DNA of 64,000 bases from Sphyrna mokarran (lineage: Eukaryota), in the NCBI GenBank assembly GCA_024679065.1, contig JAGIQG010000043.1:1984001-2048000 (forward strand), given 5' to 3'. Shown piece after piece: positions 121 to 64,000 of this stretch; the stretch's first letter is position 1; each line of letters opens with the position of its first letter. The notes beneath the pieces were generated by a model. That model was not told the DNA's origin. It ran no database searches and worked only from the letters and a program-made list of their open reading frames with translations. The translations under genes were made by a program, and so were the position numbers.

Positions 121-1104
121 AAAAAAATCACCATTAAAAAGTGGTGTGGTAGAAGAGGAATAATTCTCAAGGGGCATTGGGGAAAAAAAACGAGAGTTTA
201 GATTAAATTTACGATTCAAACAAATGTCACTGGCTTGACGGGCTGAATGGCCTATTTCTGTGCTGAAATTTGACATAGTTCTAAGCTTCGAGTCTATATA
301 ATCCATTTACCCGCGTTATGAGACGGGAAATAGATAGTATTCTTTCAGGGTTAAATATAACAGTGTCCAATACCAGGGCGCATCCAGTTAAGACTCGGGG
401 CACATTTAATCTTGCAGATTACATATCCATACAGCCTAAATCCCAATAACTTTGTGATATGCGTTGTCAGTCCTTAATCCCATCTCCAACGCACACATAA
501 TCACTCTAAAAATGTTTCTGTAAATTAGCTGAAGAGCCACCGGAAACATATTTGTTCTAAAGACTTTTAGAAACTGGAATCACACAGCTTACGTTTGGTA
601 TTCAAAACATTTTTCAATATTTAGTTAACTCGAGCAAAGATACATTTTGAATTATTTCTTGCACAATTACAGTGGAAAATCCAGAAGAGAATTTTAAAAA
701 CCGATATCAGAAATTAGAAGCACGAAGAGGTGAAAATGCACTACAGGCGATATTCCGTCATAGAATGGTGGACATGAAAAAATATTCATTTTTCCGCTTT
801 GGGCGTCATCATAATATCGAGCCGCCCGACTTTGCACTGGCTGCACTTTCGAAAGTTACCGTGCAACAGGAAGAATGTTTCTACAACACTAGACATCTAA
901 GAAGCACTGGCGAGTTCTCTCTCTCTCTCTTTTCTCTCTCGTTAGAGGGTTGGATCCTCGTTAAAGGCCAGGCTTGTCCCATAGCGTCTGTGGATGAAAA
1001 ATGAACTGCTTGTGTAATCCACACCATTATTATAAGGGTAGGTGAGGCCATGGGACCTCTCTATTCTATTCAATCGGTTCATGGCTGCCAGGTAGTTCAA
1101 GTCA

Positions 1105-2880: not shown

Positions 2881-3061
2881 GTCCCACGATTGAATTGAAT
2901 AAAATAAACTAACTTGGGAGAAGTGTTATTCGGACTCGAAAATTTCTCTATCCCTAGTTTTCTAGAATATTCTGTGTTGGTTATGAATTCTAAACCGCGG
3001 ATTAATAATGAATGAAAAGTGTCCATGTAGTTTAGCAACAATAATTCCATTCATTCACCTC

Positions 3062-3067
3062 TTTATT
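3062..3067 (-). promoter_or_regulatory. Candidate polyadenylation signal of copy 1
   Basis: AATAAA on the minus strand about 127 nt after the TM-exon stop. Confidence 0.45.
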
Positions 3068-4074
3068 TTGTTTGTGTTCTCTGGATTCTGTCAGTTCCTC
3101 ATCACTGTTCGAGTTCCTGTTAGAAAAGGGGATATAAACTGAAACTTAAAATGGGTTTATTTCACACCGAACCCGCTCAGAAGTGTCAATAACTCAGTGA
3201 TAAATGCGTGGATTGAGAGCGCCGCGATGTAACAAATTCCCCCAACCATCACTACCTCTCTGCCGGTTCCTGCAGATCCTCCTTCCGGCCACAAAGACCA
3301 ATCCCAGAAGGAGAAGAGCCGCGGCCGACAAACGCCAGAAAAGCAGTAAATGACAGGTGGGCGAGAACGGAGAATCTGCAAACAAGAATTAAACTTTCAC
3401 TCAACGAAAATCAAGTGTGGAAATAATTAAATAAGCGAAGTCTTTTTTTGTTCAATCTAACTTTCCAATTTGAAAGGAACATGGCAAAAAGTTTTGCACT
3501 GGCTCCAATCATATGACAGAGTAATATTTTTTACAATAGAACACAAGGCGAGGTTGATAGATATAGTGACAGAGAGACTGAGCATTTTTTTTTGAACAGC
3601 GCATACATCGAGATGAGGGCGAGGGGAGGGGTGCAGAAAGAAAGATTCAGAGATAGAGTAACCATATAATCCCACAGTGCAGAAGAAAACCATCCGCGCC
3701 ATCGAGGTAATGCAGAGAGAGATGGGTAGGCACTTAGATGGAGCACCATGCAACTAGAATAAAAATAGTAAACATAGAATGCTGGAGAATACTTGATAGT
3801 AAATAGAGGGAGAGAAAGAGAGATCAAAGGAGAGAGAGAGATCAATAGCTGAAGAAAGAGATGCAAACAAAGGGTGAGGGTAGACCAACTGAGAAAGCTA
3901 CGCCATGGTAAAATGGAGGATTGATACATGGAAAGGGGGAAGGTAAACAGGGGAAGATAAACAACTGGACATATCACAAAATCCCTACAACACACTGCAA
4001 GACCGTTAGGCCCATCGAACCAGTACGACAACTATCCCAACCAGGGACAAGCAACGTAAGCCCAAATATTTACA

Positions 4075-4700: not shown

Positions 4701-6000
4701 AGACAGACGAAGGGATAAATAAATAATTCTCTGGCAAGAGCAACACTGGGGAGAGAATCACACATTTTAATGTTATGCACTGACTCAGTGGTTCCTACCT
4801 TCAGGAATGTAACGGTGCCTTCGCCAGACACAAGCAGTGGGAGAGGGGAAGAGGCCATTCGGCCTATCCAGTCTAATCTGATATTTAATCACAACATGGT
4901 CTAACCGTGCACATCAATTTCACATTCCCGCCCTTTCCCCTTACCCATTAATGTATCCGTTTTCATAAATGTGCTTCAGTGATTGAACATCGACGGTATT
5001 TTTACAGTAGTGAAGAAATTTTTAAATGACAGAGAACAAATCTCTGAAAGATTGGGAGGGTTGTGATTGGGCAGAGATGAATTGAGCCTCCTGGAGATAA
5101 TCACAGAGGCATTGCTAATCTACAAATTTGGACTGTACTTCGTAACGTGTCCCATTAAAGTTAAATTCATTGATAAGTAGTCATTGTGAATAGTTACCTT
5201 CCTGAAATGAGACACTGTCACTGAGAATACTTTCACTGGAGTTGACCCGAACGGCGCAGGTACAGCGAGCGCCGGTTCTCCAAGTTTCCGCCGAGAGACT
5301 GATGTAACTCCTGACGGTGTAGGTGCCGTCCGGCTCCAGTGTCCCCGAATCGGCCTGTCCCTCGGTATCCCGCCCCGAAACATTCCAGCGGACAGGAAAG
5401 GAATCGGGAGACGCACCTCTGACCAGGCACATCAATGGGACACTTTTCATGGCGGGAATCTCATCGAATGGCGGGGTGAGGAGGAATATGTTGGGAGAAC
5501 CCGCTAAATCCGGCAAATGAAACGAAGAACAGTCATTAATTGGTGTAACAGGACACTTTAATTGCTCTGAGATAACCACTGCAATAGAATATTAATGAGA
5601 TTTACCTATAATCTCTAATTTGGAGCCATTTCCGAATATTTGGACCATGGTCTGGTAACTGCGCTTTGCGCAGTAATACATCCCAGAGTCATTTTTTCGG
5701 GATCCGTAATTATTAGTGAATAAAGACGCCCATTTTCAGAAATCTGGCTGGAAAATCTCCCGTCAGCTTGGCTGTTCTTGTATGCTCTGTAAACGAAATC
5801 CATGCCGTTTCTCCCCCTCTGTCTGTACCAGAGGACAGGGCCAGCAGCTTGACCGTTGATGCGGCAGCGGAGATTAACAGGACTCCCCACAGGGAACGTT
5901 TGAACCGGCGGAAACTGGGACACCGTGACCTGAGACATTGTAACTGGGAAAGAGAAAGAGAGAGAACAACAGTCACTTCATGTTATGGAGCATTCCCTGA

Positions 6001-6260: not shown

Positions 6261-7105
6261 GAGATGTTCCAGCACTTTTCAATTTTGCTTTGATTCTTCT
6301 CCCCCTCCGTTGACTGTTGGCGCTAAAGTCTGTTCAAGAATTTATAACTGACTTTGAAGTTCGACTTGAAAATCTTTCACTCCCAAATCGCCAGTACTGT
6401 TAAGGGAGCCCATTCACACAGCATACCTCAGGCGAAATGGCAAATCAGATTAATTCAATTCTAATCATTTTTTTCAGCAACATTTGATTCATCGTTAAGT
6501 TAAAATTGCATGCTAAATCACACCTTGTAGCACTGCAGAAGACGGATTGGTTGGGGGGGACAGTTCGGCCCTTACAAATTGAGTTGGATTTGTGAAAGGT
6601 TTCACTAATATTATTGAATTTCGTCCCTTTAAATTTGTATCCAATTCCCCCATTTTGAAAGTTCCATTTCCCCTGTTTGAAAGTTCCTGTTGGATCTGCT
6701 TCCTCCGCCCTTTGAGGCAAAACCTTCCAGATCACAACAACTCAGATGGGTTTACAAAATCCCCTAATATCCCTCTCTGTTACTTTTAGCAAATTCATGT
6801 TTCCTTGGTTCCAGAAACTCCTGCCAATGGAATCAGTTTCTGCCTCTTCGCTCTATCCATAACCTTGTCCATTCTATCTGAATATAATGAGGATATCCCA
6901 CCCTGGAAGAGATGGAGCAATGCACAGATGCCGAGGAAACCCATTGTCCTTGAGTGAGACCGTGAGACTCTGAGCCCCTGATACAAATTTCATCGAGAAC
7001 TCGCTCTTGTTCTCTCTGTGTGGGGGAGGTGTGAAATACATGCACTGTGTACATGAATGAAAACACGACAGGGGGTTGAAAATAGAACCGAGGTAGAGAG
7101 CTCTC

Positions 7106-17408: not shown

Positions 17409-19014
17409 CTTCCTGAAATGAGAAACTATCACTGAGAATACTGTCACTGGAGTTGAACCGAACGGCGCAGGTACAGCGAGCGCCGCTTCTCCAAGTTTCC
17501 GCCGAGAGGTTGATGTAACTCTTGACGGCGTAGGTCCCGTCCGGCTCCAGTGTCCCCGAATCGGTCTGTCCCTCGGTATCGCGCCCTGAAACATTCCAAC
17601 GAATGGGAAAGGAATCAGGAGGCACACCTCTGACCAAACACAACAATGGGACCCTTTCCATGGCGGGAATCTCATCCACTGGAGGGGCTGAGGAGGAATA
17701 TGTTGGGAGAACCCGCTAAATTCAGTAATGAAACAGAACACTCATTAATTGGTGGAACAGAACAATTTAATTGCTTTGAGATACTCACTGCAATTGAATA
17801 TTAATGAGATTTACCTGTAATCACTAATTTGGAGTCATTTCCGAATATTTGGACCATGTTCTGATAAATGCGCTTTGCACAGTAATACATCCCAGAGTCA
17901 TTTATTCGGGAATCCGTCATAATTAGTGAATAAAGACGCCCTTTTTCAGAAATCTGGCTGGAAAATCTCCCGTCAGCTTGGCTGTTCTCGCACACTCTGT
18001 AAATGAAATCCATGTCGATTCTCTCCCTCTGTCTGTACCAGAATACCAGAAGACACGGCCAGCAGCTTGGCCCTGGATGCGGCAGTTGAGATTAACAGGA
18101 CTCCCCGCAGCGAGCGTCTGAACCGGCGGTAACTGAGACACGGTGAGCTGTGACATTGTAACTGGGAAAGAGGAAGAGAGAAAACAACAGTCACCTCACG
18201 TTATGGAGCATTCCCTGAAGACATACAACATAGAACATTACAGCACAGAACAGGCCCTTCGGCCTTCGATGTTGCGCCGACCAATTCTGAAAAAAAAACC
18301 AATGCCTCACCAAACTAAACCATTCCCTCCTCTTCCATATACTTATCAACTAACCTCTTAAACGCCACCAAACTTGGCGCATCCACAACTGCTGCAGGCA
18401 GGGCATTCCACTCCCGAACCACCCTTTGGGTAAAGAACCTACCTCTAACGGAGCCCATTCACACGTTGAGGAGAGATGGACAATTCGGACTAACTCCATT
18501 CCAATCATTGTTGTTAATCGATTTATAAATCCAGCAGAATCGACGTTCCATTTTGTCAGTAATATTTGTTCCGTTGTTTAGTTAAAATTGCATGCTAAAT
18601 TATAGCTTATAGCACCGCAGGACACAGGAGAATCATTTGGTTCCTCAAGTATCTCTTGAATCTTTCAAATATTTAGCTAATATTACTGAATTTTCCCCCT
18701 TTAAATATGCATCCGATTCCCCCCGTTTGAAAGTTCCAATTCCTTCTTTTGAAAGTTCCTGTTGAATCTGCTTCTTCTGCCCTTTCAGGCGAAGATCACA
18801 ACTCAGATGGATTTTAAATAATCCCATCGGCCCTCTCTCTGTTATTTTTACCAAATTCTCCAATCCATGTTCCTTTGGCTCCAGAAACTCCTGCCAATGA
18901 AAAAAGTTTGTCCCTCTTCGCTCTATCCAAATCCTTCTCCATTCTATCTGAGCATAATGAGGATATCTCACCCTGAAAGCAACGAAACAGTGCACAGATA
19001 CCGAGGAAACTCAT
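17409..19014 (-). pseudogene. VJ-C1 receptor copy 2. Exons: leader 18972-19014, VJ 17815-18161, C1 17409-17715. Frameshifted; no TM exon found
   Basis: Close paralogue of copy 1. An 8-nt tandem duplication (TACCAGAA x2, 18036-18051) makes V 347 nt. C1 has a 1-nt insertion near its 5' end (307 nt). Homology with unit 1 ends near 15965, before the TM exon. Confidence 0.88.
18220..18450 (-). mobile_element. CR1 3' fragment in intron 1 of copy 2
   Basis: CR1 tail ACATAGAACATTACAGCACAGAACAGGCCC. Confidence 0.85.
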
Positions 19015-28070: not shown

Positions 28071-30049
28071 AAAACAACACTTTCCATCCATTCTGTCTTG
28101 GAGAGAGCACAGCCAACGTTTTGAGTATGAATGACTCTACCTCAGAGGTCATTTTAATACGTTTTTCCTTGCAGAATAGAAATTTGAATTTCGACAATAG
28201 AACTGATAATTCAAGTAGCATGAACACAGAGTATTTCTAATGTAGAGGGACGTGTTTTTATTTCCATAGACAAAAAGTGGCACTTTGGTTAGCTTTGCTG
28301 CCTCACAGGCAGGACATGTGTTCGATTCCTGGCTTGGATGATCGTCTGTGTCTGCACGTTTCCCCCGTGTCCCCAAGGTTTGCTTTGGGTTTTCTGTTCT
28401 CCTTCCATAGTCCGAGAGACTGCTGCTAAGATGTTTTGGCCATGCTGAATTCTCCGGAATTTGGAGGGGTTCTGAGGCAAAATCGAGAAATAATCGATTG
28501 AAGAATAATGGGAAGGGCTATTCTGCCTATAGCAACACATGCCTGCAAATCATCCACTCAATTTCCGTGTGGAATGTTTGTGTTTGAGTCGACCACACCT
28601 ATATTCAATTTAAAAAATGCATTTGTAATGGGAATCACAGGAGAAACTTGATAGGTCAGATCTTAACAACCGTCTCCATTATCATGTAACTATCACCGCG
28701 ACGGATTCAAAAAATAAGTCCTAATATTTCTGATATTAAAGGCGTCATCTCAGTCAAACAGCGTTTCAAATTTGCTCGTTCCTTTAATTGAACCTCTAAC
28801 GTGAGTAGGTATTTCCTTATTTATTTTATTTAGTTATTAGTCACAAGTAAAGCTTACATTAACATGCAAATAAATTGTTATGAAATTCACTTAGTTACCA
28901 CACTTCGGCGCTGTTTAGGTAAATACAGCCCGTCTGTCAGACTGTGGGAGGAGAAAAACCTACGCAGACAAGGGGAGACTGTACAAACTCCACATCGACG
29001 GTGACCCAAACCGAGAATCGAACCCGCGTCCCTGGCTCTGTGAGGCAACAGTGTCAACCACTGTGTGACAGTGCCGCCCAAATTCTGTTAGCGAGTTTGT
29101 ATTAAACACTTTGCACGCAAAGCTCTTTCAGTCAAAACTATTGGCTGAGTTTGCCAACGGTATTGATAGTAATATTTACAAACAGAATAATAGGGTGCTG
29201 TGTTCGAAGAGGAGTAATTTTCAGGGATTTTGGGAGATAAATAAGATGCACAACTGGAGAGCAGGTTCATCCAATTGGCACCTGCGTGACGGGCAGAATG
29301 GCCACTTTCTACAGCCATAATTCGATGATTTCTGCGGATAATATCCGCTTACCCATGACGTCAGACGGGAACACGGATTGTGAATTTTGTTTCAAGAATA
29401 AATATATCTGTGTCCAATAGCAGGACACAATCTGTTTAGTCTTGAGATGCACACAAAACTGTAGACTTCATATTTATGTAGCTGAAATTCCCAAGCAGGT
29501 GTCTTGTCAGTCCCTAAACCTACTTCAAATGCATTTTTCACTCCAAAAATGGCTTCTTTAATGAGCTAAAGCGCCACCCGAAATACTTTCATTCTGAACC
29601 ACTTGGGAACTGGAATCACACGGCTTTTCAAAACGTGTTTAATGGATTGTATCATTGCTTTGCCTAACGTGCTGTACAAAATGCAGCATGTCAACGCCGA
29701 TATCGGAAATTAGAAACTTGAAAAGACTCAAGTTGAACCGCAAGCGATATTTAATTGTAGAATAATTAACATTAGGACAAAATTCCCTTTCCACTTTATG
29801 GGCCAGTGCAGACATTCAACCACAAATCCGTCTGCAGTTGAAAATTCACCTGTTCAAACTTTGCATACAACAAATTCTAAAGTTTCTGCAACATGAAACA
29901 TCCAGAAACCACACGGTGAGCACGCCCTTTCCTCTCCGATTAGAATGTTGCATCCTGGTTGAAGGCCAGGAGAGCCTCAAGTGCCTGTGGATAAAAAGTC
30001 ATTTGTACTGTAGTCAACACCAATAGTGCCGGGATAGGTGAGACCATTG

Positions 30050-30690
30050 AACCCAGAGATCCATAGAATCCATGAAAGAGAATCGTACCCAGGCCTATCC
30101 CCGCTGTATGCCCATTAACCCGCGTGTTAACCATGAATAATCCATCTAAGGGACGCATCTTTGGAATCTGTGGGGCAATTTAGCGCATCTAATTGATCTG
30201 ATATACAAATCTTTGGATTCTAAGGGTGAATTTACCATGGCTAATCCACCTAACCAGCAAAAAATTGGATACTAAGGGGAAATTTACGTGGCCAAACCAC
30301 ATAATTGCACATTTTTGGGCACTAAAGAGTAATTTAACATGGCCAGACCCTGCATCTTCGGACACTAACGTACAATTTGGCATGGCCAACCCACTTAACC
30401 AACACAGCCTTGGACACTAAGGGGCAATTTAGCATGGCAAATCCCCCTAACTTTGGACACAAAGGGGTCATGTGGTATGGCCTATCCCCTGATCTTCGGG
30501 CACCAAAGGCCAACATGGCATGGACGGTCCATTAACTTCCACATATTCGGACTATGACAGGAAACTAGAGCACCTGGGGGTACTCCATGCAGATACGGGG
30601 ACGACATGCAAACTCCACAGTCATCGAAGGCCAGAGTTGAATGCAAGTGCCTGGAATTGTGAGACAGCAATGTTAACTATTGTAGCATAG
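30050..30690 (-). mobile_element. HE1/V-SINE with degenerate 52-bp repeats
   Basis: Repeat units plus V core. Confidence 0.75.
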
Positions 30691-31024
30691 TCCCATTCAA
30701 TTCAGATCATGGCTGATAGGTAGCTTCCTGACGTATTCCCCCTATGTTTCTATAATTCTTACAAACCTCCCTGACAATAAGCTGTCCTTCTCAGTTTTGA
30801 TAGTTTCAATTGATCACTGCCCTATACGACTTTTTAGTCGCAACTGTTCCAGAATTCCATTCCTCCTAATATGAAGAACTTCCCGCGCCCACCTCCGAAC
30901 ATTTGTCTATCATTTTACTTTTCTGCCTGCTTGTCAGGAATTCCCCCCAAACGAAGAGAGGCCACTCTTCATCTATCCCAGTCCAATAATGTTGTGTAAT
31001 CATTTAAAGCATTTCAAAGTACAA

Positions 31025-31705
31025 AGAAGAACAAAGAACAAAACAGCACGGGAAACAGGCCCTTCTGCCTAACGAGCCCGCGCCGCCATCCCGATGTTCC
31101 CAACTCTACCCGCGATCCCTGTCCATGTTTATAGATCTATGGATCAAAAACCAAATTTGAGACAATTTAGGGAGACATTGTTTTGCCAATTAGCCTAAGA
31201 GCACATCTTTGGGATGTGGGAGGAAACCGGAGCACCCGGAGAAAACCCACGCAAGCACGGGGAGAATGCGCAAACGACCACAGACACAGACCCAAATCCA
31301 TGTATCTGCCCAGCACAGCGATAGTCACTGAGCTGTCGTGTTGACCATCAAATGGTCCAGGTCAAGCGTACACTAACGATGTGAAGCACTAGGATACTCT
31401 CGAAAAAAAATCCAAGAGCAGCCCTCTCACGACCCATCGCGTGTATGCCCCTCGTTAGACAACAAGGTGGACCAAAGCACCTGTAGGATCAAAATAAGTA
31501 CATCAATATCATCATCTATTTACACACTTCCCAGGGACTCCCAAGGCTCATGATACCTATTTTAAATCAGTTTTCTATATCCCTCCATTCCCATTCTGTT
31601 CATGTGCCCATCTAAGTATTTCTTAAATAACTCCAGAGTACCTGACACCACCACGTTACTTGGCAGTGCATTCCATACCCCCACCAACCTCTGTGTGAAA
31701 ATTTC
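31025..31705 (-). mobile_element. CR1 3' end with a V-SINE-core-containing UTR
   Basis: Highly similar to 61840-62510. Confidence 0.85.
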
Positions 31706-31839
31706 AATGAGATTAAGTTACAATCTTGTATTCTGGAGGTTAAGCAAACCTTGCCTGTTCTGTGTTGTAATGAGCACCATCCAAAGTCTTTTAGACAAAC
31801 ATAAAAATACATGAGTTTACAATAGATGTGAAGAAGATT

Positions 31840-32900
31840 TATACGTGTGGAATTGTCAAATGGATAGAGAAGTGACAGATGGAATTTAACAGTGAAGTGT
31901 GTGATACAGTTTGGAAGGAGCAATTTGACAAGGAAACGCCCAATCAACAGTATGACACAAGGATGTACAGAGAGACCTTGGCGTTTTTGCCCATAGATCT
32001 CTGAAGGTGGAAGAACATGTTAGCAGGGAGGCGAAAAAGCCTTATGGGAACTTGTTTTTATCAGTTGAGGCATGGATTACAAAAGCAGGGAGGTCATGTT
32101 GGAGTTGTGTAGAACTTTCGGCCTGCGACAGCCAGAATAATGTGTTCAGTTCTGCTCGCTACATCATAGGAAGGACGTGACTGCACTGGAGGAAGTTCAG
32201 TGGAGGTTCACCAGAATGCTGCCTGGCATAGAACATTTGAGTTGTAAACTGAGGTTTGGTAGGTCTGGGTTGTTTGTGTTGAAACAGAGAAAACTGAGGG
32301 AGGACTTGACCGAAGTCTGTAAGATTATGAGAGATACTGGGAGCAGGTACAGAGGAGATATCAGGGGTAAGAGAGTGAGTGGAATCGGCTGCCGTCGGTG
32401 GTGGTACAGGCGAACGCATTGGGGTTTTTTAAGCCATTTCTGGACGAGTCCATGGTGTTTACTTTGATTGAGAGTTATAGATTGGCTTGGTAGGTACGGA
32501 TATGATCAGCACAACTTTTGGGCCAAAGGATCTCTTTGTGCCATAGTGTTCTAGTTTCTATATTCTATATGGATATAGTGGAGAAGGTACTAACTAAGTG
32601 GACCCTTAGTTGAAGGGTCAATCACGAAAGACAGAGGTACAAGGTGAGTGCACGAGATTTATGGGGAATGTGAGGAAAACTCGTTTTTAACTACAGGATA
32701 ATGATGGTCTGGAATGCGAGGCCTGGCAGGATGTCGAGGCAGTTCCCTTATAATCTTTACAAGGTACACGATTGAGACCTTGACACATCACAACATTCAA
32801 GGTTAAGGGCCAAGTACTGGCAGATGGAATTAGCTTGGTGTTCAAGTGTTTCTACCGTGTTAGTGCGGATCCGATTATCCAAAGGGCCTCTTTTGCACTG
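31840..32900 (+). mobile_element. Degenerate CR1 fragments
   Basis: RFTRMLPG motif and tails. Confidence 0.75.
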
Positions 32901-33699
32901 TAAGATTCTAAGGTTCTATGAGACTTGACACATTGCTTCTCTCTCCACATATGCTGCTAACCTTGCCACCTTCTTCGAGGATATCCTGAATTGAATTCTA
33001 AACGATTAATTAACATTTTCTGCAAATTGTCCGGGTGTAGTGGCCATAATAATCTTATTCAATCACCTCTTGATTCTGTTTGTGCTCTGTGCAACCTGTC
33101 TAATCCTCGCCACTGTTCACGGTGCCTGTTAGAAAGGGGAATTTAAGTTGGACCTCAAAGACTCATTGAAACCGCTCAAGGAGCAAATAATGAGTTTCAA
33201 ATGGATGGATTGAGAGCGCAAAAGGTGAAGCATCTCCCAACAGTCGCTACCTCTCTGCCGCTACCTGAATCCCTCTTGTGGCCATAAGAACCAATCCCAG
33301 AAGGAGAAGTGTCGACATCGCCAAAGCCCTGAAAAGCAGGAAAATACAATTGGTCAGCAGCGAAGAATCTGCACAATATAAAAAAAAACTTTCAATTAAA
33401 ATAATGAATTGTGGAAAGGATTAGACACTTGGAGAATTTTCTTAACTCTGCCTGCTCAAATACTCCCGAAGGCAGAAATAATTTTTTTTTTTGTCTCTGT
33501 CATTATCATTTTTTTTAGAATCAAGATCACATATAGCATTTTTTCAATAGGACACTGCATGGACAGGTGGCGGCAGAGAGGGAGGTAATTGCCAGAAATC
33601 TTATAGAGAACATTTAGAACAGAAGAGAGAAAAATGACAGATGGATTGACAGAAAGGGAGATTCGTTGATATAACAGAATCCTAGTGACTGGCCGGACA

Positions 33700-36749: not shown

Positions 36750-38250
36750 GTGGGTGGCACGGGAGCACACGCGGGCAGCTCGGGTCATTGTCTGTATGGC
36801 GTTTGCACATTGTCCTCGTGTCTGCGTGAGTTTCCTCTGGGTACCCCGGTTTCCTCTCACAGTGCAGGTTGATTCGCCATGATAAAATTGACCCTTAGTG
36901 TCCTACGATGCTTAGAATAGAGGAATCAATGGGTAGTAATATGTAGGAATATGGGGGTAGAGTTTGGGTGGGATTGTGGTCGGTACAGACTTGAAGGGCC
37001 TCTTTCCGCACTGTAGGGTTCTATGAATCTATGACTCCCTGGAGTACAAATAAAGAAGTACATTTTCAGAATGTGAAACTTTGAGAAACCTGTGATAGGA
37101 TAATGATTGATTGAATTTATAGAATCATAGAAACCCTACAGTGCTGAAGGAAGCCATTCGGCCTATTGACCACGCACCAACAAAAATCCCACCCAAAGCC
37201 TGTAATCCCATAACCCCACTTATTTATGTTGCTAATCCCGCTGACACTAAGGGGCAATTTACCATGGCCAATCCACTTAGTTTATACATCGTTGGACACT
37301 AAAAGGAAATTTAGCAAGGCCAATCCATCTAGCTTACACATCTTTGGACAATAAATGCTTTTGTAGCACGGTCAATCCAATTAACTGCCACATCTTCGGA
37401 CTGTGGGATGAAATTCAAGCACCTGGAGAAAATCCAAGCAGACACGGGGAGAACGTTCAGACTCCACACAAATAGTGACTAGAGGTTGAATTGAGCCTGG
37501 ATCTCTGGCGCTGTGAAGCAGCCATGCTGGTCTTTGTGCCACCATGCCACCGATTGGAAATTAGAGAGATTTGGAATTTACAAGAGACACTCACTGTGAA
37601 GTCTCTAATTAACATGGAGTGCATTAACGGGTGATCATTGTGAATACCGATATCTCTGAGCTGAGACACTTTCACTTAGAAGATGATCACCAGAGTTGAT
37701 CTGAGCAGGCCAAGTACAGCAAGCGCCGCTACTCCAAGTTTCTGTGGAGACGCTGATGTAACTGGTGATGGTGTAGTTCCCATTCAGCTCCAGAGTCCCT
37801 GAATTCATCTGTACCCAGATATCCCGGGATTTAGTAGCATGACGATTTAAATGATCGTCATGCTAAATCGTCCCCTGGTGTTCCAGAATGTGTAAACCAT
37901 GTGGATGGGCCATGTTAAATTGCCTTTAAAGGCCAAAGATGTGTCGGTTAGCTATTGGACGTGCGAAATTGCCCCTTACCATCCAAAGATGAGTGGGTTT
38001 GGTGGAATGATCATGCTAAATTGTCATTTAGTGTCGGAAGGTGTGCAGTTTCGGTGGACTGGCCATGCTAAATTGGCCTTTAGTGTCCAAAGGTGTGCCG
38101 GTTATGTGGATTGGACATGCTAAATTGCCCTCAGTGTCCGGGAGATTAGTGGAGTACGTACAAAAGGTGACGTAGATATGGCACGTTTGGGATTATTGAT
38201 TGTGATTGGCTGATTGGCCGAATATCCTATTTCTATGCTGGAGGTATTCG
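36750..38250. mobile_element. V-SINE cluster (+ 36750-37030, - 37120-37550, + 52-bp array 37855-38250) flanking the C1 remnant
   Basis: V core and 52-bp units. Confidence 0.75.
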
Positions 38251-38911
38251 ATTATTCTAATTCAGTATATATTTTTTGTTAATTGTTATTGATTGATTCA
38301 TACACTACATTTTCCCCTTCGTTAATATGTGTTTTATTGCAAATTAAACGTGAATGCGAAGCTACATAATCATACATTGCACAGCACAGCTGGAGACCAT
38401 TCCACCATTCGTGCCCCTGCTGGACCATTGCAGATTTATCTAATTAGTCCCCGCCCTCTCTTTTCTTGTTTCCCCCATATCTCTGGCACTTTGGCCCCAT
38501 CACATTCTTAAGCAAACAGCCTCTTTTGAAATTTCCGATTGAATCTGCCTTTCGGGCAGTGACTTCCATTTGACAATAATATGTTTAAATTAATCCTTCC
38601 CGTTTCCAGACATTTACCAATTGTCATCAATCTCTTTCACCCTCAGTAAAAATAGTATCTTTATTTACTGTACAGAAATCATTATCCACTCATCTGAATT
38701 TGTCAAGGATATCTCACCTTGGAAGAGGTGGAGCAGTGCACAAACGCCGAGCAAACTCATTGTCCATGAACCAATCGGCGGGTTTCTGAATACTAATCCA
38801 AACCTCACTGCGAAATCTCTGTGTGGGAGACGTGACATATGCAGTGCAAATACCGTGTTTATTAATGCATACACGATTGGTGTTACAAAATAGAACTGAG
38901 GCAGAAAGCTC

Positions 38912-47482: not shown

Positions 47483-47552
47483 ATGTCCCAGCAATCTTTA
47501 TCGCTGATAATCATTCTCCAACTGTTGTGGGCTTATAGTGATTGTGTTCCAG
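47483..47552 (+). CDS. Leader exon MSQQSLSLIIILQLLWAYSDCVP
   Basis: ATG in an AAAATG context, hydrophobic core, phase-1 donor CCAG|GTGAGA. Confidence 0.85.
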
Positions 47553-49135
47553 GTGAGAAGTTTAAATTGTTGTCAGCCAAATTAGATTTTAAGCATTGGT
47601 GTCTCAAATCGGCTTCCAGAGGAATTTCGAGGCAACTTCATTGCAATGTTATTGAAGGCCTTACTTGTCATTAATAAATAAACTTTACTTTTACATCGAC
47701 ACTGCAATGAAGTTACTGTGAAAATCCTCTCGTCGCCATATTCCCGCGCTATGAGGGTACACTGAGGGAGAATTTGGCACGGCCAACGCATCGAACCAGC
47801 TCACTGTGGGAGGAAACTCCGGCATAGAAACGGGGAGAACGTGTACAGAGAGTGGTCCCAGCCAGGAGTTGAACCCGAGTCCCCAGCGTTGTGAGGCAGT
47901 GGTGACGGCAACCTTGCCAACCGGTGACGGTACTGCAAAATCCATAGAAGGGATTTTGTCTCTTCTTTGTTTCCTCCTTTCAAGCGAAGAAAACACAAAT
48001 TGGGAAGTAAATCTAAGGAAGTATCATTGAACTCATTATGAGATTGTTCTTAATTTACAGGCGACTTATTTTGCCAAACGGCTGCTTTCTATGTCGAAAT
48101 AATCTGTGGTAATGTGTCAATAATCTCTCTGGTTACAGATTCTGAGCTGTCTCAACCTGAAAGCTCCTTCACAGTGACAGCTGGAATCGGCCAGACGGTC
48201 AATTTATCCTGTCACTACACTTACGAGGTGAAAATGGTGACTAACTATTTCTGGTATAAACAACGTGTTGGTGGAATCCCTAAAAAAATCGATACTACGA
48301 ACTGTCAGGGGGATGAGTGTAAGTTTATTTCCAAAAAAGGCAACGGCAAATGTGAATTGATACTGGAAATTCGCAATGTCCAGGCGAATGACTTGGGTTC
48401 CTACTATTGTGCTCATAAGTATGGCTCTGCACCGCTCCAGAATGGACCCACACTACTGGTTGGAGGTAAGGGAGCAAGTGAAATGAATTCAGATTGCGCA
48501 TAGAATTTCAAATTTGACGAAAGTAATCATTCACTGCGTCCCAATCTCTGTTCCAGACAGTTCCACCAACAAGACGGCTGTGCAGATCTTTGCCCCGCCG
48601 GCTGAGCTGGATGTGAATGATACTGTGCCCTTAGTGTGTTTGGTCAGTGGAGTTTCTTCCAACCAGATTGCCGTTTTCTGGAATATTTCCGGTCTGGTAA
48701 CTGAAGGATCGAGTGATCTCGGGATAGTGGAGGAGGGCGGCACCCACAGCATCAGGAGTCATGTTATGGTGTCGGGAGTAACCTGGAATAGAGGCGCTGT
48801 TTGCACTTGTGTTGTTCAACTGGGGACTCCAGGGAAATACTGGACGAAGAGTGTGTCGAATCTCAAAACAACAGGTAAGTAGAAAGGTAAAATATTACTC
48901 TGTACATTGAAGCCTTCTATTCAACTTTAGAAACAATTGGATTAATTTAATCGATCCTAGGCATCTGAGGATATATAGGTGTGTACATAAATATGCCTGT
49001 ATGATTATGCATGTCTGTTCTTGATGTGTGTGCGAGTGTGTTTATGTGCGTGCTTGTAACTGTGTGATGTGTTTGTGTATGTGTATGCATTTGTGTATGT
49101 GTCTGTGTGTGTGTCCCTGTGTCTGCATGCGTGTA

Positions 49136-49172
<37 letters not shown>

Positions 49173-52100
49173 CTGTGACTATATACCTCTCTATGTGTTT
49201 GTATGTGTAGATATATCTCTGAGCATTTGTGTGTTTGATTTCATCTGATTTATTATTGTCTCATGTATCAGTACGCATTTATAAGTATTGTTTCGTGTGC
49301 ACTACACAACAAAGCATACAGTGCACAGAGGACATCGGGGGGAAGGAAATGAGAGGGTACAGAATGCCGTGTTACAGTCATAGCTAGGGTATAAAGAAAG
49401 ATCGGGTTAATATAGGGTTCAAAATTCTGATGGCAGCCCGGAAGAAGCCGTTCTTGAGTCGGTAGGTATGTGGTCTCCACATTGATATATGTGTATAGTT
49501 ATATATATATATATATATATGAATTTGCTTGTATCAGACTATGTAAATCGATATACAGCTGGGCCTGTGTTCACGCGTGTTATATCTGACTGTGTGTGTC
49601 TATGTGTGTGTATAGGTAAATGTGTGTGTGTGAGTGTGTGTGTGTATGTGAAAAGATAAATATCTGAGCACGTGTATGTCTGTATGTAAGTGTAGGTACA
49701 TACCTGACCCTTTGTATGTCTAAATGTGGGTACAGAAAAATATAGATATCTGTGTTCACACGTGTGTTATATCTGACTGTGTGTGTGCATTCAAATATTA
49801 AAGTATCTGAGACTGCATTAGAATGGTAACAGCCCACAACGGGCAGCACAGTTAGCACGGCAGCTTGACAGCTCTAGGGACCTGGGTTCAATTCCCGACT
49901 TGGGACTCATTCCCCTCGTGTCTACGTGGGTTTCCTCTGGGTGTTCCAATTTCCTCCCACAGTCCAAATTTGTCCGGGTTCAGTTGCTTGGCCAGGCTAA
50001 AAACCGCGTTTGTGTCCTGAGATGTGTAGGTTAGAAGGAGTAGAGTGCAAACATGTAGGGATATGGGGGTAGGGCCTGGGTGGGATTGTGGTCAGTGCAC
50101 ACTGGATGGGCCGAATGGCCTCTTTCTGTACTGTAGGGTTTCTATACTTCTTGTTTGATAGATACTCTCCCGTTTCACTTTATAATTCTGAGAAAATGTA
50201 CGGATCTTTGAACAATGCACCCAGATAGATCCCTTTCAGCCTATTATATCTCGACTCCCTCTTCGAAAAAGCTATCCCGTCCGCCCAACATCTTCCTGCC
50301 AAGCCTTTTCAAGTTTTCTCCTTGTTGTCAAGATGTGATTCCTGGATTTTTTTTTTGTTTGCTCCCACCTTCCTTTTCGAAAAGTGAATTTAGAAATGGA
50401 GGAGAGATCAGTTCTACACTGCAGGCACTTTTGCAAACAGACAATAGACAAGAGATGAAATTGACATGTTTGGCCGGAAGGTTGGTGAATGAATTGACTT
50501 CATTTTGCTTCCTGTTCATCAATTTACAACGGCCTACTCACACATACAGATAATTTGAAAGTAAATTTAACATCCTGATATCAGTAACTTAATATATCAT
50601 TAATCAACCAGAGCATAATAGAATCCTACAGTGCAGACGGAGGCCATTCGGCCTATCGAGTCTACAGCGATAGCAATCCTACCCAGCCGAACCCCATAAC
50701 CCCATCAGTTTATACTAGCTAGTTCCTCTGAAACTAAGGAACAATTTAGCATGGCCAATCCACCGAACCCACACATCTTTGGACTGTGGGAGGAAACCAG
50801 ACTACCTGGAAGAAACCCACGCAGAGAAAGTGAAAACTACACACTGAAAATGATCGGAGCCGGGAATTGAACCCAGACCAGTTGTCAGGTCGTAATGCTA
50901 ACCCTTTGTGTCACCATGCCGTCTCATGATCGTATGGAAGTAGACTCGATGGGCTGAATGGACTATATCCGTTCCAATGCTTTTTCGTTGTAGGAATTAA
51001 GAGCAAATTTTGAACTTGGATTGTTGGAAACGATTCCAAACTGTCAATCACACGGTAAATGATTTCCTGGCCCTGAATCTACACGAATCATACAAACCTG
51101 CAGTAAAGAAGGAGACACTTGGATCATCAAATCTTCACCGACTTGCCATCAGAGCATTTACCGAGTTCCCTATCCCTGTAACCTCTCCTATTAATCCCAC
51201 ATCTTGGACACTAAAGGACACTAAGTTTAGCATGACAAATCCAGGGAATGGCAAATTGTGTACAACGAAGGGCCACTTTAGCATGGCCATTCCAACCAAA
51301 CCGAACATTGCTGAACACTAAGGGGTAATTTAGTACGGCCAATTCAACTATCCTGTCAACAGATTTTGAGAAGACTTACTTTATATTAAATTGACCTTTC
51401 TCGAGATGGACATCTCGAGATGTCCAACTAACAACTTTGGAACCAGAGTACCTGGAGGAAAGACAAGGACAGAGCGGGGCAAGTGTTACCTCCACACTAG
51501 CAGGCACCCAAGGCGGGAATTGAACGTGGCGCCCTGGCGCTGTTTGGCGGTAGGGCTAAGTGCTGTGCCACAGTGCTGCCACCTGTAAATCATTGAAGAT
51601 GGCCGATGGTTAGGAAAGCATAGAAGGTTCAGAGCTTTTGAAATTGAGTCACAGAATCGAAAAAGAGTGAAGCAAATTCCTGCTCCATCGGCCAGCACAA
51701 TCGAAGTCCCCACTTACCCCAGACATTTTGTTTCCCGCATCTCTCCATGGAGAAACGTACACAAACCTGAAATCCCTTGCCAACTGAATCAAGAACAGCT
51801 TTTCTCTTGCTGCCGTCAGGCTTTTGAATGGATATAGCTTTTGTTAAAGCAGAAACTGCTGGAAAAACTCTGCAGGTCTGACATTAACTGTGGGGACAGA
51901 AAACAGCCCATGTTTTGAGTCTAGATGGCCCTTCTCCAGAGCTCTGACACAGGGTCATTTAGACTCCAAATATTGGCCCTTTTCTCTTCCCATAAGTGCT
52001 GTCAGCCTTGCTGAGATTTTTCATTTTTTTCTGTATTATTTTTCCAATTCCAATATCGGCAATATTTTGCTTTTATATTAAGCTGTTTTTTCTCGACACC

Positions 52101-55100
52101 CAAAATATGACTGCACCAATATGTCCTCCATCCCCTTCTATCCCTCTCCATTATGAACTCTATTGGCGATCTGTTTCGTCTGTGTAGCGTGCAAAAAACA
52201 TATTTTTTTTCACTGCACCCCAATACACGTGTCAATAATAAATATAGATATGATAGTGATTTTTAAAGGGCGTATTGAGAAATCCATGAATAGGATGGTA
52301 ACAGAAGGATATGGTCCACGGAAGTGTAAGGGATTTACGTTCAGTTGATCTGCATGGTTCGATGCACGTTTAGAGAGCCGAAGAGTCAATCTCTACTCTA
52401 TAATATTATTTGCCCTTTGTTCTTAATAAATCAAACCAGATCAAATCAAATCTATATGTATCTATGAACAATACATGTAACACACAAGAAACAATGCTTT
52501 TCACAATACCAATGACTGTGACAATGATAATACATCAAATTAATAGCAAAACTTCGCAAAATTCTGCTTCCGTCTTAACGGTGTTCAGTTAATGGCGCTG
52601 CAATTTAAGAGAAATAAGAAGCGATTGCAGAAACAAGAATTACCAGGATGGTCATAAATATAGAACATAGAACATTACAGCGCAGTATAGGCCCTTCGGC
52701 CCTCGATGTTGCGCCGGCCAGTGGACCCTCTTACCTAAACTATTCCAATATCATCCATATGCCTATCCACCGAACATTTGAGTGCCCCCAAAGTAGGCGA
52801 GTCCACAACTGCTGCAGGCAGGGCATTCCACGCTCTCAGCACCCTCTGTCTAAAGAACCTGCCTCTGACATCCGTCCTATAACTACCACCTCTTAATTTA
52901 AAGTTATGTCCCCTCGTGTTGGTCATCACCATCCGAGGAAAAAGGCTCTCACTATCCACCCTATCCAATCCCTTGATCATCTTATACGCCTCAATTAGGT
53001 CACCGCGTAACCTTCTTCTCTCTAATGAAAATAACCTCAGGTCCCTCAGCCTTTCCTCATAAGGCCTTCCCACCATACCAGGCAACATCCTGGTAAACCT
53101 CCTCTGCACCCTTTCCAATGCTTCCACATCTTTCTTATAATGCGGCGACCAGAACTGTACGCAATACTCCAAGTGCAGCCGCACCAGAGTTTTGTACAGT
53201 TGTAACATAACCTCACGGCTCCTAAATTCAATCCCTCTAACAATAAAAGCTAACACACCGTACGCCTTCTTAACAACTTTATCAACCTGGGTGCCAACTT
53301 TCAAAGAGCTATGTACTTGTACCCCAAGATCCCTCTGCTCGACAACGCTATTAAGGGTCCTTCCATTAGCCCTATATTTCATATGCCTGTTATTCCTACC
53401 AAAGTGAGTCACCTCACACTTATCCGTATTAAATTCTATTTGCCACTTCACGGCCCAGCTCTGCAACCTCTGCAAACTGTAGCATCCATCCTCGCTGTCT
53501 ACAACTCCCCCCACTTTGGTATTGACAGCAAATTTACTAATCCAACCCTCTACACCCTCATCTAGGTCATTTATAAAAATGACAAACGGCAGTGGCCCTA
53601 AAACAGATCCTTGAGGTACACCACTTGTAACTGCACTCCAGGTTGAATATTTCCCATCAACCACCACCCTCTGTCTTCTATCAGCTAGCCAATTCCTAAT
53701 CCAAACTACTAAATCACCTTCAAAAATATGAGGAACTTCAGTTAACTGGATAGCTTTGACAAATTGTTTAGCTAGCACAATGTTGAGAGGAGATGTGAGG
53801 AGGGAGTTGAGAATCCTGAAATGATTGGACAGAGCAGAGAGGAAAACTGATTCACATAGGCAGGGAGAGCTAAGAACAAGAGGGAGATATTATAAATAGA
53901 TTGGCAAAAGAAACACTAGCGGCACCAGTGGCAGTTAACTGTCAGTCACGATCAACTTGGTCTGATTTCATTTATTATTCTCACATGCATTGGGATACAG
54001 TGTAAAGTACCTTTCCTTGCGTTCTATACAGACAAAGTATACCTTCATTGAGTACATTAATTTTGTTTATTATTGTCACATGTATTGGGATGCAGTGAAA
54101 AATATTGTTTCTTGCGTGCTATACAGACAAGGCATACCGTTCATAGAGTACATAGATTTGATTTGTTATTGCCATATGTAATGGGATACAGTTAAAAATA
54201 TTGCTTCTTGCGCATTCTACAGATAAAGCATACCGTTCATAGAGTACATAAATCTGATTTATTGTTGTCACATGTATTGGGATACAGTGAAAGGTATTAC
54301 TTCTTCCGCACTTTACAGAAATAGCATACTGTTCAGAGTACATAGATTTAATTTGATTAATTATTGTCACATGTATTGGGCTATAGTTAAAATTATTGTA
54401 TCTTATTGACCATGTAGACAAAGCGTTTCGAGTAGTTGGGGAGAAGGAAAGGAAAATAGGCAGAATCTGCTTTGCAGTCACTCATAATTTTTCGAGAAAG
54501 GTCAACTTAATATAAAGTATGTCTATTCAAAGTCTGATGGCGAAAGGGAAGAAGCTGTTCTTGCTCAAACTTTTGCATCTTTTCCCCGGTGGAAGAATAT
54601 GGAAGAGAGAATATCCGGGGTGCATGAAGCCTTGATTATGCTGGCTGTTTTTCAGAGGCAGCAGAAAGATTGCTCAGAGTTAATGGTTGGAAGATTAGTT
54701 TACATGATGGATTGGACTTCGTTCACGACATTTTGTGGTTTTCTTGGGGTCTTGGAGTAGAAGTTGTGATATGCCATGCTGCATCTGTGTAAATTGATGA
54801 GAGTTGGAGCAGAATTTCTTTACGCCGCTGAGAAAGTGGATATTTTAGTGGGTTTTCTTGATGGTAGCATCTGCGTGGATGGAGCAGTGCAGGTTATTGG
54901 TGATCAGAACGCCCAGAAAGGTAGGTATGAATATGATCGGCGCAACTTGTGGGCCGAAGGGCCTGTTTGTGCTATTTGTGCTATGTTCTAAAATGGCGTT
55001 TTGGAATCTAGAACGAGAATCTGAAAAAAGATGGCGTGCATGGATTCAATAAGCACTTCCAAAAGTAGAATTGAACAAACACATTGGTTTCAGGACTACT

Positions 55101-58100: not shown

Positions 58101-58522
58101 GCCGGTGAACAGGAAGCCGGAGTGTGACGATTTTCACAGTAATCTCATTGCAGTGTTAATGTGAGCCCACATGTAACACTATTAAATAAAATTTAACCTG
58201 CTGCATTATCGGTAGCCATGGGCACACCGTGGCTTGATGTAATTATAGATCATATAGATTGGGTGATATTTCAATTCATAATTGTGAAATTTACACACAG
58301 GGAATCGTCATCAAACAGAGGCAAACTTAACAGCGCAGCATGGAATTCAGGTGAGTGCATTGAACCCCTTGTGATGCATTAGAATTAACTTTGGGGGGAA
58401 AAAAAACATTATTTTAACCGTCTCGATTATGACTGTTGAATATATTTCAGGATGGACCTCTCTACGCCTCCCTGGATTTGGCTGCATTGGAAAAAAGATC
58501 AAGGAAGAAGAACATGAAATGA
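47483..58522 (+). CDS. Intact 8-exon V-C1-TM-cytoplasmic Ig-superfamily receptor, inhibitory type, 341 aa. Exons: 47483-47552, 48139-48465, 48557-48874, 55932-56033, 56136-56175, 56394-56440, 58301-58350, 58451-58522
   Basis: All introns are GT-AG with matching phases (1,1,1,1,2,1,0). Exon lengths 70+327+318+102+40+47+50+72 = 1026 nt form one open frame ending in TGA at 58520-58522. Domains: signal peptide, V-set, C1-set, hydrophobic TM, and a charged tail ending DGPLYASLDLAALEKRSRKKNMK. Confidence 0.85.
47680..47925 (-). mobile_element. V-SINE in intron 1 of the + strand gene
   Basis: V core and tRNA-like head. Confidence 0.75.
48139..48465 (+). CDS. V-set Ig exon including the G strand (degenerate J-like LQNGPTLLVG)
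   Basis: Acceptor TTACAG; motifs VNLSC, FWYKQ, LEIRNVQANDLGSYYC; donor GGAG|GTAAGG; 327 nt, phase 1-1. Confidence 0.92.
48557..48874 (+). CDS. C1-set Ig constant exon
   Basis: Acceptor TTCCAG; motifs VQIFAPP, VPLVCLVSG, VFWNISG, THSIRSHVMV, TWNRGAVCTCVV; donor ACAG|GTAAGT; 318 nt. Confidence 0.92.
49025..49790. repeat. (TG)n and (TA)n microsatellite-rich intronic region
   Basis: Seen directly in the sequence. Confidence 0.9.
49840..51580. mobile_element. V-SINEs (+ 49840-50150, - 50620-50920, - 51080-51580)
   Basis: V core and 52-bp units. Confidence 0.7.
52660..53720 (-). mobile_element. 5'-truncated CR1 (RT C-terminal half)
   Basis: ORF 52735-53778 with GVPQGSVLGP; tail AGAACATAGAAC. 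Confidence 0.92.
55300..55765 (+). mobile_element. Degenerate CR1 3' fragment
   Basis: Eroded 3' motifs and CTTATGGTCTTATG tail. Confidence 0.7.
55932..56033 (+). CDS. Transmembrane exon EWCRQTVFVGIPILVLLILLLVLLSIWSCKNRRS
   Basis: Acceptor CTCTATAG and donor TCAG|GTGAGG; uncharged hydrophobic stretch followed by basic KNRR; phase 1-1. Confidence 0.88.
56136..56440 (+). CDS. Two small cytoplasmic exons: 56136-56175 (EDRRKGTQGSQDET) and 56394-56440 (LNERKQRQGRKERQT)
   Basis: Polypyrimidine-TTTAG acceptors; consensus donors GTGAGT and GTAAGT; the only open frame of the second exon matches the phase left by the first. Confidence 0.75.
56830..57380 (-). mobile_element. Degenerate CR1 3' fragment
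   Basis: Eroded ORF2 C-terminal motifs. Confidence 0.65.
57900..58195 (+). mobile_element. V-SINE
   Basis: tRNA-like head, V core, A-rich tail; another copy on the minus strand at about 59200-59450. Confidence 0.75.
58301..58522 (+). CDS. Last two cytoplasmic exons: 58301-58350 (RNRHQTEANLTAQHGIQ) and 58451-58522 (DGPLYASLDLAALEKRSRKKNMK-stop)
   Basis: ACACAG acceptor and CAG|GTGAGT donor convert phase 1 to phase 0; 100-nt intron; TTTCAG acceptor; YxxL motif in frame. Confidence 0.78.
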
Positions 58523-63930: not shown

Positions 63931-64000
63931 TGTCAGCTGTTCCTTCCTCTCTTATCCAGAACTCACGGGATGATATGAATGCCCCCAGAAACTTGCTGGG

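What the first reader, a model, noticed from the sequence alone, without database searches (positions are those of the whole stretch)
3194..3375. Activating-type TM exon: membrane-proximal Cys and intramembrane Arg retained in two divergent copies
Copy 1 reads PTCHLLLFWRLSAAALLLLGLVFVA and copy 3 (33247-33368) reads TNCIFLLFRALAMSTLLLLGLVLMA. The Cys aligns, and an Arg is present in both but in adjacent codons (TGG CGT vs AGG GCT), which suggests selection for a basic residue there. Known: an N-terminal TM Arg mediates pairing with FcR-gamma/CD3-zeta in NKp46, NKp30, activating LILRs and TCR-alpha.
Basis: partly seen in the sequence, partly recalled or inferred. Interest (0 to 1): 0.72.

Follow-up and report, generated by a model that had tools for sequence, protein, structure and literature searches.

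The report
Broken activating-type shark immune receptor copies
This exon belongs to a broken copy of a large shark family of antibody-shaped, non-rearranging surface receptors in which most genes carry a brake-type tail, while a few lineages, this one included, separately gained a membrane arginine and lost that tail, and so likely became switch-on versions.

Summary
Both peptides, the Cys and the two Arg codons are there. The exon belongs to a cluster of about 74 germline-joined VJ-C1-TM genes of two alternating types (A, B) in a shark. The Arg is not 'retained': 33 of 40 A-type TM exons lack it at these positions, and copies 1 and 3 gained it separately from adjacent Gly codons (single origin rejected, p 0.0003). 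The Cys is in 39 of 39 exons, inhibitory ones included. Both copies are broken: copy 1 has a V-exon frameshift, copy 3 has no V exon. Yet the activating reading holds for the family. All 6 genes with this Arg lost the last-exon tyrosine, and 0 of 32 without it did (three independent lineages). Two intact genes (L065, L068), a horn shark model and a lungfish model show the same pairing, and the genome encodes FcR-gamma and CD3-zeta. Adaptor binding is untested, and drift in dead genes could explain copy 3. The closest known family is probably PRARP (recalled; paper not held). The scan noted similar paired clusters in other genomes before.

The parts
3256..3375 (-). Copy 1 (type A) transmembrane exon; Cys codon 3355-3353, Arg codon 3334-3332 (Cys+7)
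   Evidence: AG/GT boundaries; open
6902..6944 (-). Copy 1 leader exon, open
5606..5943 (-). Copy 1 germline-joined VJ exon with a 1-nt deletion near 5702 (spliced product stops after 123 aa)
   Evidence: same lesion in duplicate L041 and in a contig of run X1
5198..5503 (-). Copy 1 C1-set exon, open, pN/pS 0.87 against the paralogue majority
3059..3116 (-). Copy 1 cytoplasmic exon 2, 1-nt deletion giving an early stop
942..987 (-). Copy 1 last exon; 1-nt insertion shared with relic L075; tyrosine motif of intact paralogues (TLYARL) lost
17409..19014 (-). Copy 2 (type A): leader 18972-19014, VJ 17815-18161 (+8 nt), C1 17409-17715 (+1 nt); no TM exon found
33251..33368 (-). Copy 3 TM exon; Arg codon 33330-33328 (Cys+6); 2-nt deletion after the membrane span
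37652..38760 (-). Copy 3 leader (38718-38760) and 5'-truncated C1 relic (about 37652-37862); no V exon found
29940..33125 (-). Copy 3 cytoplasmic exon 2 (33067-33125) and last exon (29940-29984; Tyr codon changed to Glu)
47483..58522 (+). Intact type B gene: leader 47483-47552, VJ 48139-48465, C1 48557-48874, TM 55932-56033 (Cys, no charge in the span), cytoplasmic exons 56136-56175, 56394-56440, 58301-58350, 58451-58522 (PLYASL)

Best explanation
This is the transmembrane exon of a broken gene from a shark cluster of non-rearranging VJ-C1 receptors, and its arginine is a lineage-specific gain that likely marked an activating version before the gene died. Shown: most type A genes have an uncharged span and a C-terminal TxYxxL motif. 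Three lineages changed a Gly codon at Cys+6 or Cys+7 to Arg, and each lost the tyrosine. Copy 1 (with duplicate L041 and relic L075) and copy 3 (with L080) are two of these lineages and have broken ectodomains. L065/L068 is the third and has open V and C1 exons. Inferred: the tyrosine motif works as an ITIM/ITSM. The Arg, about five residues into the membrane, would pair with the Asp of FcR-gamma or CD3-zeta. The invariant Cys would link chains, probably A with B. Activating 3' halves would arise repeatedly, be recombined onto shared ectodomains through the C1-TM intron, and often decay. Odds by step: both window copies non-functional 0.85; copy 1 descends from a once-working activating gene 0.7; copy 3 does 0.5; intact Arg members signal through FcR-gamma or CD3-zeta 0.6.
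For: Census: of 38 type A genes with TM and last exon both seen, 6 of 6 with Arg at Cys+6/+7 lost the Tyr codon and 0 of 32 without it did. Starred branches force 3 origins, and 3 of 3 independent pairs go the same way. The chance that three losses fall on the three Arg branches is about 2e-4 to 2e-3 by branch length. Seven broken or ectodomain-less genes without this Arg keep the Tyr codon: L054, L058, L059, L072, L078, L079, C1016. Copy 1 and L075 share both the Arg and the last-exon insertion on a short stem (0.052) but have different fatal lesions. Other species: of 30 A-type proteins, the 2 with Arg at Cys+7 (horn shark XP_067878558.1, lungfish XP_043934944.1) lack the motif and the other 28 have it. 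Same ectodomain with opposite tails: L068/L067 (V exon identical) and B2409/B2481 (identical V-C1 protein). Within Cys+2 to Cys+22 there are 6 independent gains of Arg and none of Asp/Glu, with 11 versus 9 one-step paths (about p 0.03, my hand count, transition bias ignored). TM exons of CD3-zeta and FcR-gamma with the Asp are in this genome. Precedent: passages of PMC3210942 (activating variants short-lived and recurrent; ligand-domain homogenisation) and PMC6514059 (TM Arg pairs with adaptor Asp).
Against: Only 3 independent lineages in this genome, so the sign test gives p 0.25. The branch-length figure is partly circular, because tails evolve faster once the motif is lost and the tree includes the trait columns. 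Two of the three lineages are dead, and Gly-to-Arg takes one base change. Copy 3 sits on a long branch (0.23), where drift alone could give both changes. The NxxR motif of FcR-gamma-binding TMs (PMC2413239 passages) is absent. If 'motif not reached by splicing' is scored instead, 4 of 32 Arg-less genes also lose it. Type B breaks the rule: 4 of 34 B loci have Arg at Cys+7 and keep YASL in frame (three of them intact), and 2 lost the Tyr without Arg. Three intact A genes have a deeper Arg (Cys+15) and keep the motif. The horn shark and lungfish tails are RefSeq predictions, and exon-skipping isoforms also shorten the tail in Arg-less genes (P0002, P0036). Near-identical gene pairs may be uncollapsed haplotypes, which inflates counts.
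Confidence: 0.62

Rival explanations
1. Neutral decay: the two arginines are chance first-position changes of Gly codons in genes that were already dead, and the tyrosine was lost for the same reason.
For: Both copies are broken. Cys+6 and Cys+7 have 2 and 1 one-step paths to Arg. Copy 1 C1 has pN/pS 0.87, against a median near 0.33 in 11 intact paralogues. 5 of 7 genes with this Arg are broken, against 8 of 33 without.
Against: It does not explain intact L065/L068 (C1 pN/pS 0.16 between them), the horn shark and lungfish models, the seven broken Arg-less genes that keep the Tyr codon, or the lack of Asp/Glu gains.
Confidence: 0.25
2. The Arg is functional but is not an adaptor contact: it snorkels at the outer membrane face or tunes pairing between A and B chains.
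For: No NxxR motif. The position varies (Cys+6, +7; +9 in type B). B genes with Arg at Cys+7 keep the tyrosine motif. A and B genes alternate along the cluster (53 of 73 neighbours; 2 of 10000 shuffles reach this).
Against: Only 16-17 uncharged residues follow the Arg in type A, so it should lie in the bilayer. Partner B spans have no acidic residue in the hydrophobic stretch. This reading gives no reason for the loss of the tail.
Confidence: 0.08
3. Copy 1 still makes a membrane protein by skipping its frameshifted V exon (leader, C1 and TM exons join in phase), giving a C1-only Arg chain that links a B chain to an adaptor.
For: Leader, C1 and TM exons are open and all splice sites are AG/GT in copy 1 and in its 97.8% identical duplicate.
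Against: C1 pN/pS 0.87 suggests relaxed constraint, though on only 18 changes. Nothing here shows such a transcript.
Confidence: 0.04
4. One reading: an ancestral TM Arg kept by selection in divergent copies of an activating receptor family.
For: An Arg is present in both copies, one codon apart.
Against: 33 of 40 paralogous exons and 28 of 30 A-type proteins of other species lack it. The codons differ in position. A single origin is rejected (p-AU 0.0003).
Confidence: 0.01

Closest known systems
PRARP pair (Fu et al. 2019, J Immunol 202:1992; PMID 30770416). Paper not held: I saw only its citation and one-line mentions in PMC10751288 and PMC11599192; its features are recalled.
   Same: Two related non-rearranging VJ genes with a V-C1 ectodomain, a cytoplasmic tyrosine motif and a membrane-proximal Cys. 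Relatives of both types occur in sharks, rays and lungfish, type A also in turtles, type B also in gar and salmonids. A single head-to-head A/B pair lies on contig C894.
   Different: Here about 74 genes in a 2.3 Mb cluster, with Arg-bearing short-tailed members. As recalled, PRARP was described as a pair with ITIM/ITSM tails. Orthology to chicken PRARP was not tested.
Arg-type activating receptors that bind FcR-gamma or CD3-zeta (LILRA2, PIR-A, NKp46, GPVI, OSCAR, Fc-alpha-RI, Xenopus XFL TM1; NKp30)
   Same: Arg near the outer end of the membrane span with a short tail lacking tyrosine motifs (PMC2413239 and PMC6514059 passages).
   Different: No NxxR motif. The ectodomain is VJ-C1, not the single V of NKp30 or the LILR-type domains. 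The Arg arose anew from Gly codons, so this is convergence, not homology.
Paired receptor families with recurrent activating members (KIR, Ly49, KLRC, PIR)
   Same: Activating forms derived from inhibitory ones, short-lived, sharing ectodomains with inhibitory partners (PMC3210942 passages; here).
   Different: Antigen-receptor-like V-C1 chains of two types, in a cartilaginous fish.
SIRP-alpha/beta (named as closest by several earlier scan notes)
   Same: VJ-type V domain, C1-set domain, paired inhibitory and activating forms (SIRP features recalled).
   Different: One C1 domain rather than two, one tyrosine motif, Arg rather than a central Lys. No SIRP among the 60 best PDB matches of the V domain or the family profile, which are T-cell receptor and antibody chains.
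T-cell receptor chains and shark UrIg/UrIg2
   Same: V(J)-C1-Cys-TM layout; the best natural PDB matches of the V domain are TCR alpha chains. UrIg2 is also non-rearranging (PMC12227049 passages).
   Different: V and J are one exon with no recombination signal. The tail carries a tyrosine motif. UrIg2 has nine C1 domains.

Membership tests
Activating Arg-type FcR-gamma/CD3-zeta-associated receptors | Arg within the N-terminal part of the membrane span | tested here: met
   Position 5-7 of the best 19-21 residue hydropathy window in copies 1 and 3, L068 and P0007
Activating Arg-type FcR-gamma/CD3-zeta-associated receptors | NxxR motif (LILRA/NKp46/XFL type) | tested here: not met
   The residue three before the Arg is Leu, Leu, Ser or Ile; motif from PMC2413239
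Activating Arg-type FcR-gamma/CD3-zeta-associated receptors | No cytoplasmic inhibitory tyrosine motif | tested here: met
   6 of 6
Activating Arg-type FcR-gamma/CD3-zeta-associated receptors | Intact gene able to make the receptor | tested here: not met
   Copy 1 has a V frameshift and copy 3 has no V exon; met only by L065/L068 elsewhere in the cluster
Activating Arg-type FcR-gamma/CD3-zeta-associated receptors | Arg-dependent binding to the adaptor and signalling | not testable with these tools
   Adaptor TM exons are present in the genome; binding needs an experiment
PRARP (features recalled) | Germline-joined VJ exon, no recombination signals | tested here: met
   One exon ends in an FGxG-type J segment with its own donor; no RSS found around three V exons or in the window
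PRARP (features recalled) | V-C1-TM with ITIM/ITSM-like tail | tested here: met
   Pfam V-set and C1-set; TxYxxL in intact type A genes, YASL in type B
PRARP (features recalled) | Two gene types lying as a pair across jawed vertebrates | tested here: met
   A and B clades; C894 pair and alternation in C1027; consecutive accessions in Mobula birostris
PRARP (features recalled) | Orthology or synteny with chicken PRARP1/2 | not tested
   No named PRARP sequence came up; paper not held
PRARP (features recalled) | Disulfide-linked homo- or heterodimer | not tested
   Cys invariant in 39 of 39 A exons and present in 34 of 34 B exons; no complex model was obtained
NKp30/NCR3 | Single V domain followed by an Arg-containing TM | tested here: not met
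   A C1 exon is present and most members lack the Arg; definition from PMC6514059
SIRP (features recalled) | V-C1-C1 ectodomain | tested here: not met
   One C1 exon per gene in the models and in RefSeq relatives of about 303 aa
T-cell receptor chains | Split V and J segments with recombination signals; conserved TM basic residues | tested here: not met

The most novel reading that the evidence does not exclude
Sharks have a germline-encoded, two-chain, T-cell-receptor-shaped receptor system of several dozen A and B chains. It is inhibitory by default and repeatedly makes activating chains by one Gly-to-Arg change plus tail loss, then swaps activating and inhibitory 3' halves onto identical ectodomains. 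It would be a KIR/Ly49-like self and non-self sensor built on the scaffold thought to precede antigen receptors, and would show that such a scaffold is one base change away from coupling to CD3-zeta or FcR-gamma.
Probability: 0.4. Interest if true: 0.78.

Novelty: new variant of a known kind. Interest (0 to 1): 0.48.

Why it matters
The two exons flagged are relics, but they point to intact test cases. L068/L067 and B2409/B2481 have the same ectodomain with opposite tails, and the horn shark gene differs from its inhibitory sisters by one TM residue and the tail. If these bind FcR-gamma or CD3-zeta through the Arg, cartilaginous fish have a large paired-receptor family on a non-rearranging VJ-C1 frame. 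That bears on the identity of shark NK or myeloid receptors and on how an antigen-receptor precursor could acquire ITAM signalling. My searches of the held library found no description of this cluster or of activating members. The main papers on these genes were not held, so novelty is uncertain.

Tried and rejected
Run search: no RNA holder listed. Laying contigs of four runs on 3000-6050 was swamped by repeats and paralogues; only the narrow V-exon call was usable, and X1 may be the source sample. The TM exon alone has no meaningful PDB match (best E 0.39). A conserved block near 7190-7300 was first taken as the leader exon and rejected: it gives no hydrophobic peptide, and the leader lies at 6944-6902. 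One search suggested that L062 and L065/L068 lacked cytoplasmic exon 2; this was a detection miss, corrected (L062 keeps its motif). Automatic type B models mis-placed some donors; five were re-set by hand, and the more divergent B genes remain incompletely modelled. Rows dropped from the 38-gene count: of 43 type A models, 3 had no TM exon in that call (L071, copy 2, C894A) and 2 no last exon (L077, L080). Five further near-identical TM copies (L006, L007, L013, L019, L026; all Arg-less) were not modelled. No structure prediction was run. No supplements were read. Look-ups of earlier notes by place and by sequence returned nothing.

Full report
Observation. The two peptides are on the minus strand as quoted. 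Each begins at a phase-1 AG acceptor (3375 and 33368). The Cys codons align. The Arg is CGT at Cys+7 in copy 1 and AGG at Cys+6 in copy 3. In both it falls inside the best hydropathy window, with 16-17 uncharged residues after it.

The gene. Upstream lie a C1-set exon, a V-set exon ending in a J-like segment, and a leader. Downstream lie a 59-nt exon and a last exon. An intact paralogue (L043) gives 303 aa: leader, VJ, C1, Cys, uncharged span, and a tail ending in TLYARL. RefSeq models from Mustelus, Cetorhinus and Heterodontus have the same layout. No recombination signal was found. The window also holds an intact gene of a second type (B) on the plus strand, with the same domain order, a Cys and a YASL tail.

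The cluster. The TM exon has 40 matches in the genome (40 of 45 candidates scored), mostly in contig C1027 between 0.6 and 2.85 Mb. By my sorting of the C1 hits (150 of 264 candidates scored), C1027 holds 40 type A and 34 type B loci. They alternate more than chance (53 of 73 neighbours; 2 of 10000 shuffles). One head-to-head A/B pair lies on C894, both with tyrosine motifs and no TM Arg. Many loci come as near-identical pairs, so some may be uncollapsed haplotypes. A and B form two clades that include rays, lungfish, turtles, gar and salmonids.

The window's three type A copies are broken. Copy 1 has a 1-nt deletion in V. Its duplicate L041 (97.8% identical over 7.9 kb) has the same lesion, and a 112-nt contig of run X1 spans it without a difference. 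Copy 1 also has frameshifts in both tail exons. Copy 2 has frameshifts in V and C1 and no TM exon. Copy 3 has no V exon, a truncated C1 and a 2-nt deletion in the TM exon.

Is the Arg retained? No. Of 40 type A TM exons, 7 have Arg at Cys+6 or +7. The majority codons are GGG and GGT, so each Arg is one first-position change. A tree of the 3' exons forces three origins on well-supported branches: copy 1/L041/L075, copy 3, and L065/L068. Holding copies 1 and 3 together is rejected (p-AU 0.0003). The Cys is in 39 of 39 readable exons and so is a family feature, likely for a disulfide link (inferred).

Is it activating-type all the same? Among 38 genes with both exons seen, all 6 with this Arg lost the last-exon Tyr and none of the other 32 did. 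The losses differ: an insertion, a Tyr-to-Glu change, and a deletion plus an upstream stop. With three lineages the sign test is only p 0.25. Placing the losses by branch length gives 2e-4 to 2e-3 but is partly circular. Three points weigh against mere decay. Seven broken Arg-less genes keep the Tyr codon. L065 and L068 have open V and C1 exons (the leader was seen for L068 only). Of 30 A-type proteins from other species, the only two with Arg at Cys+7 (horn shark, lungfish) are the only two without the motif. Copy 1 is a mosaic: V and C1 are nearest to inhibitory L045/L042 (93%), while its TM-side intron and last exon are nearest to L075 (80%, 83%). L067 joins the L068 5' half (99.7%) to an inhibitory 3' half within the C1-TM intron. 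B2409 (Arg at Cys+9, stop just after the span) and B2481 (no Arg, YASL) encode the same ectodomain. TM exons of CD3-zeta and FcR-gamma, with their Asp, are in the genome. This matches the pattern described for KIR, Ly49 and KLRC (PMC3210942, passages).

Against. The NxxR motif is absent (PMC2413239, passages). Four B loci have Arg at Cys+7 and keep YASL, though 19 hydrophobic residues follow, so that Arg may be at the surface (a post-hoc reading). Two B loci lost the Tyr without Arg. Of 22 B-type proteins from other species, 4 lack the motif without any Arg. Three intact A genes carry Arg at Cys+15 and keep the motif. Four Arg-less A genes probably do not reach the motif after splicing. Copy 3 lies on a long branch where drift could give both changes. 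Copy 1 C1 shows relaxed constraint (pN/pS 0.87). All tails of other species are predicted models, and exon skipping shortens tails in Arg-less genes too.

Mechanism. Shown: anatomy, lesions, independent Arg gains, co-occurrence with tail loss, shared ectodomains, presence of adaptor genes. Inferred: inhibitory role of the tyrosine motif, Arg-Asp pairing with FcR-gamma or CD3-zeta, A-B disulfide dimer, former function of copies 1 and 3. It works like the Arg-type paired receptors but is not a member of NKp30, LILR, SIRP or TCR families (membership table). It fits PRARP on every recalled feature tested, but orthology was not tested.

Literature seen. Passages only: PMC12227049, PMC10751288, PMC3210942, PMC2413239, PMC11599192, PMC6514059. 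Not held: Ohta 2019, Fu 2019, Flajnik 2023, Flajnik 2012; these and their supplements may already describe shark members. Nine searches were answered; none returned a description of this cluster. Earlier scan notes from other genomes describe similar paired VJ-C1 clusters. They are unchecked, came after my reading was set, and prompted the SIRP comparison.

Verdict. Observation confirmed; interpretation partly supported. These two exons are relics of independently derived, probably activating lineages in a real and apparently little-described paired-receptor family. Interest 0.48; new variant of a known kind.

Noticed in passing
L060, L062, L066 (G000:C1027 about 789 kb, 1,709 kb, 936 kb): Three type A genes with open V and C1 exons carry an Arg deep in the span (Cys+15), from at least two origins, and keep the tyrosine motif: possible dual-function receptors.
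   Followed up: partly
L067/L084 against L068 and L078 (C1027 1,114,743-1,129,085 against 1,065,599-1,026,000): Inverted near-identical copy with a 25 kb gap that joins the activating gene's ectodomain to an inhibitory 3' half; a real rearrangement, a second haplotype or an assembly artefact.
   Followed up: partly
L139 and L146 (C1027 2,401,500-2,411,499 and 2,480,100-2,490,099): Type B pair with identical ectodomain and opposite TM/tail; both lack the usual leader donor and would need an internal one.
   Followed up: partly
G000:C894 about 2,351,000-2,395,000 (L073, L074, L095-L098): A single head-to-head A/B pair outside the main cluster, more divergent, possibly the ancestral locus; flanking genes not examined.
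   Followed up: partly
L131 (C335) and L132 (C446): TM exons of CD3-zeta-like and FcR-gamma-like adaptors; the assignment of which is which is recalled from their sequences.
   Followed up: no
P0002, P0036 (RefSeq isoforms): Skipping the short cytoplasmic exon shifts the last exon out of frame and removes the tyrosine motif, so inhibitory genes may make tail-less isoforms.
   Followed up: no
L077, L078, L079, L075: Relics with TM and tail exons but no V or C1 exon found in the stretch fetched; L077 and L079 keep a leader.
   Followed up: partly
window 10502-11883, 42315-45590, 52738-53889, 62374-63932: Fragments of reverse-transcriptase-like ORFs, recognised from recall as LINE retrotransposons; not scanned against Pfam.
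   Followed up: no
window 4078-4639, 14234-14905, 16339-16842; 2498-2872, 7548-8119, 53963-54424: Two families of degenerate tandem repeats, with units of about 52 and 96 nt, in introns and spacers.
   Followed up: no
G000 contigs C772, C994, C1548: Other large arrays of C1-set exons at 30-38% identity to the query; not identified.
   Followed up: no
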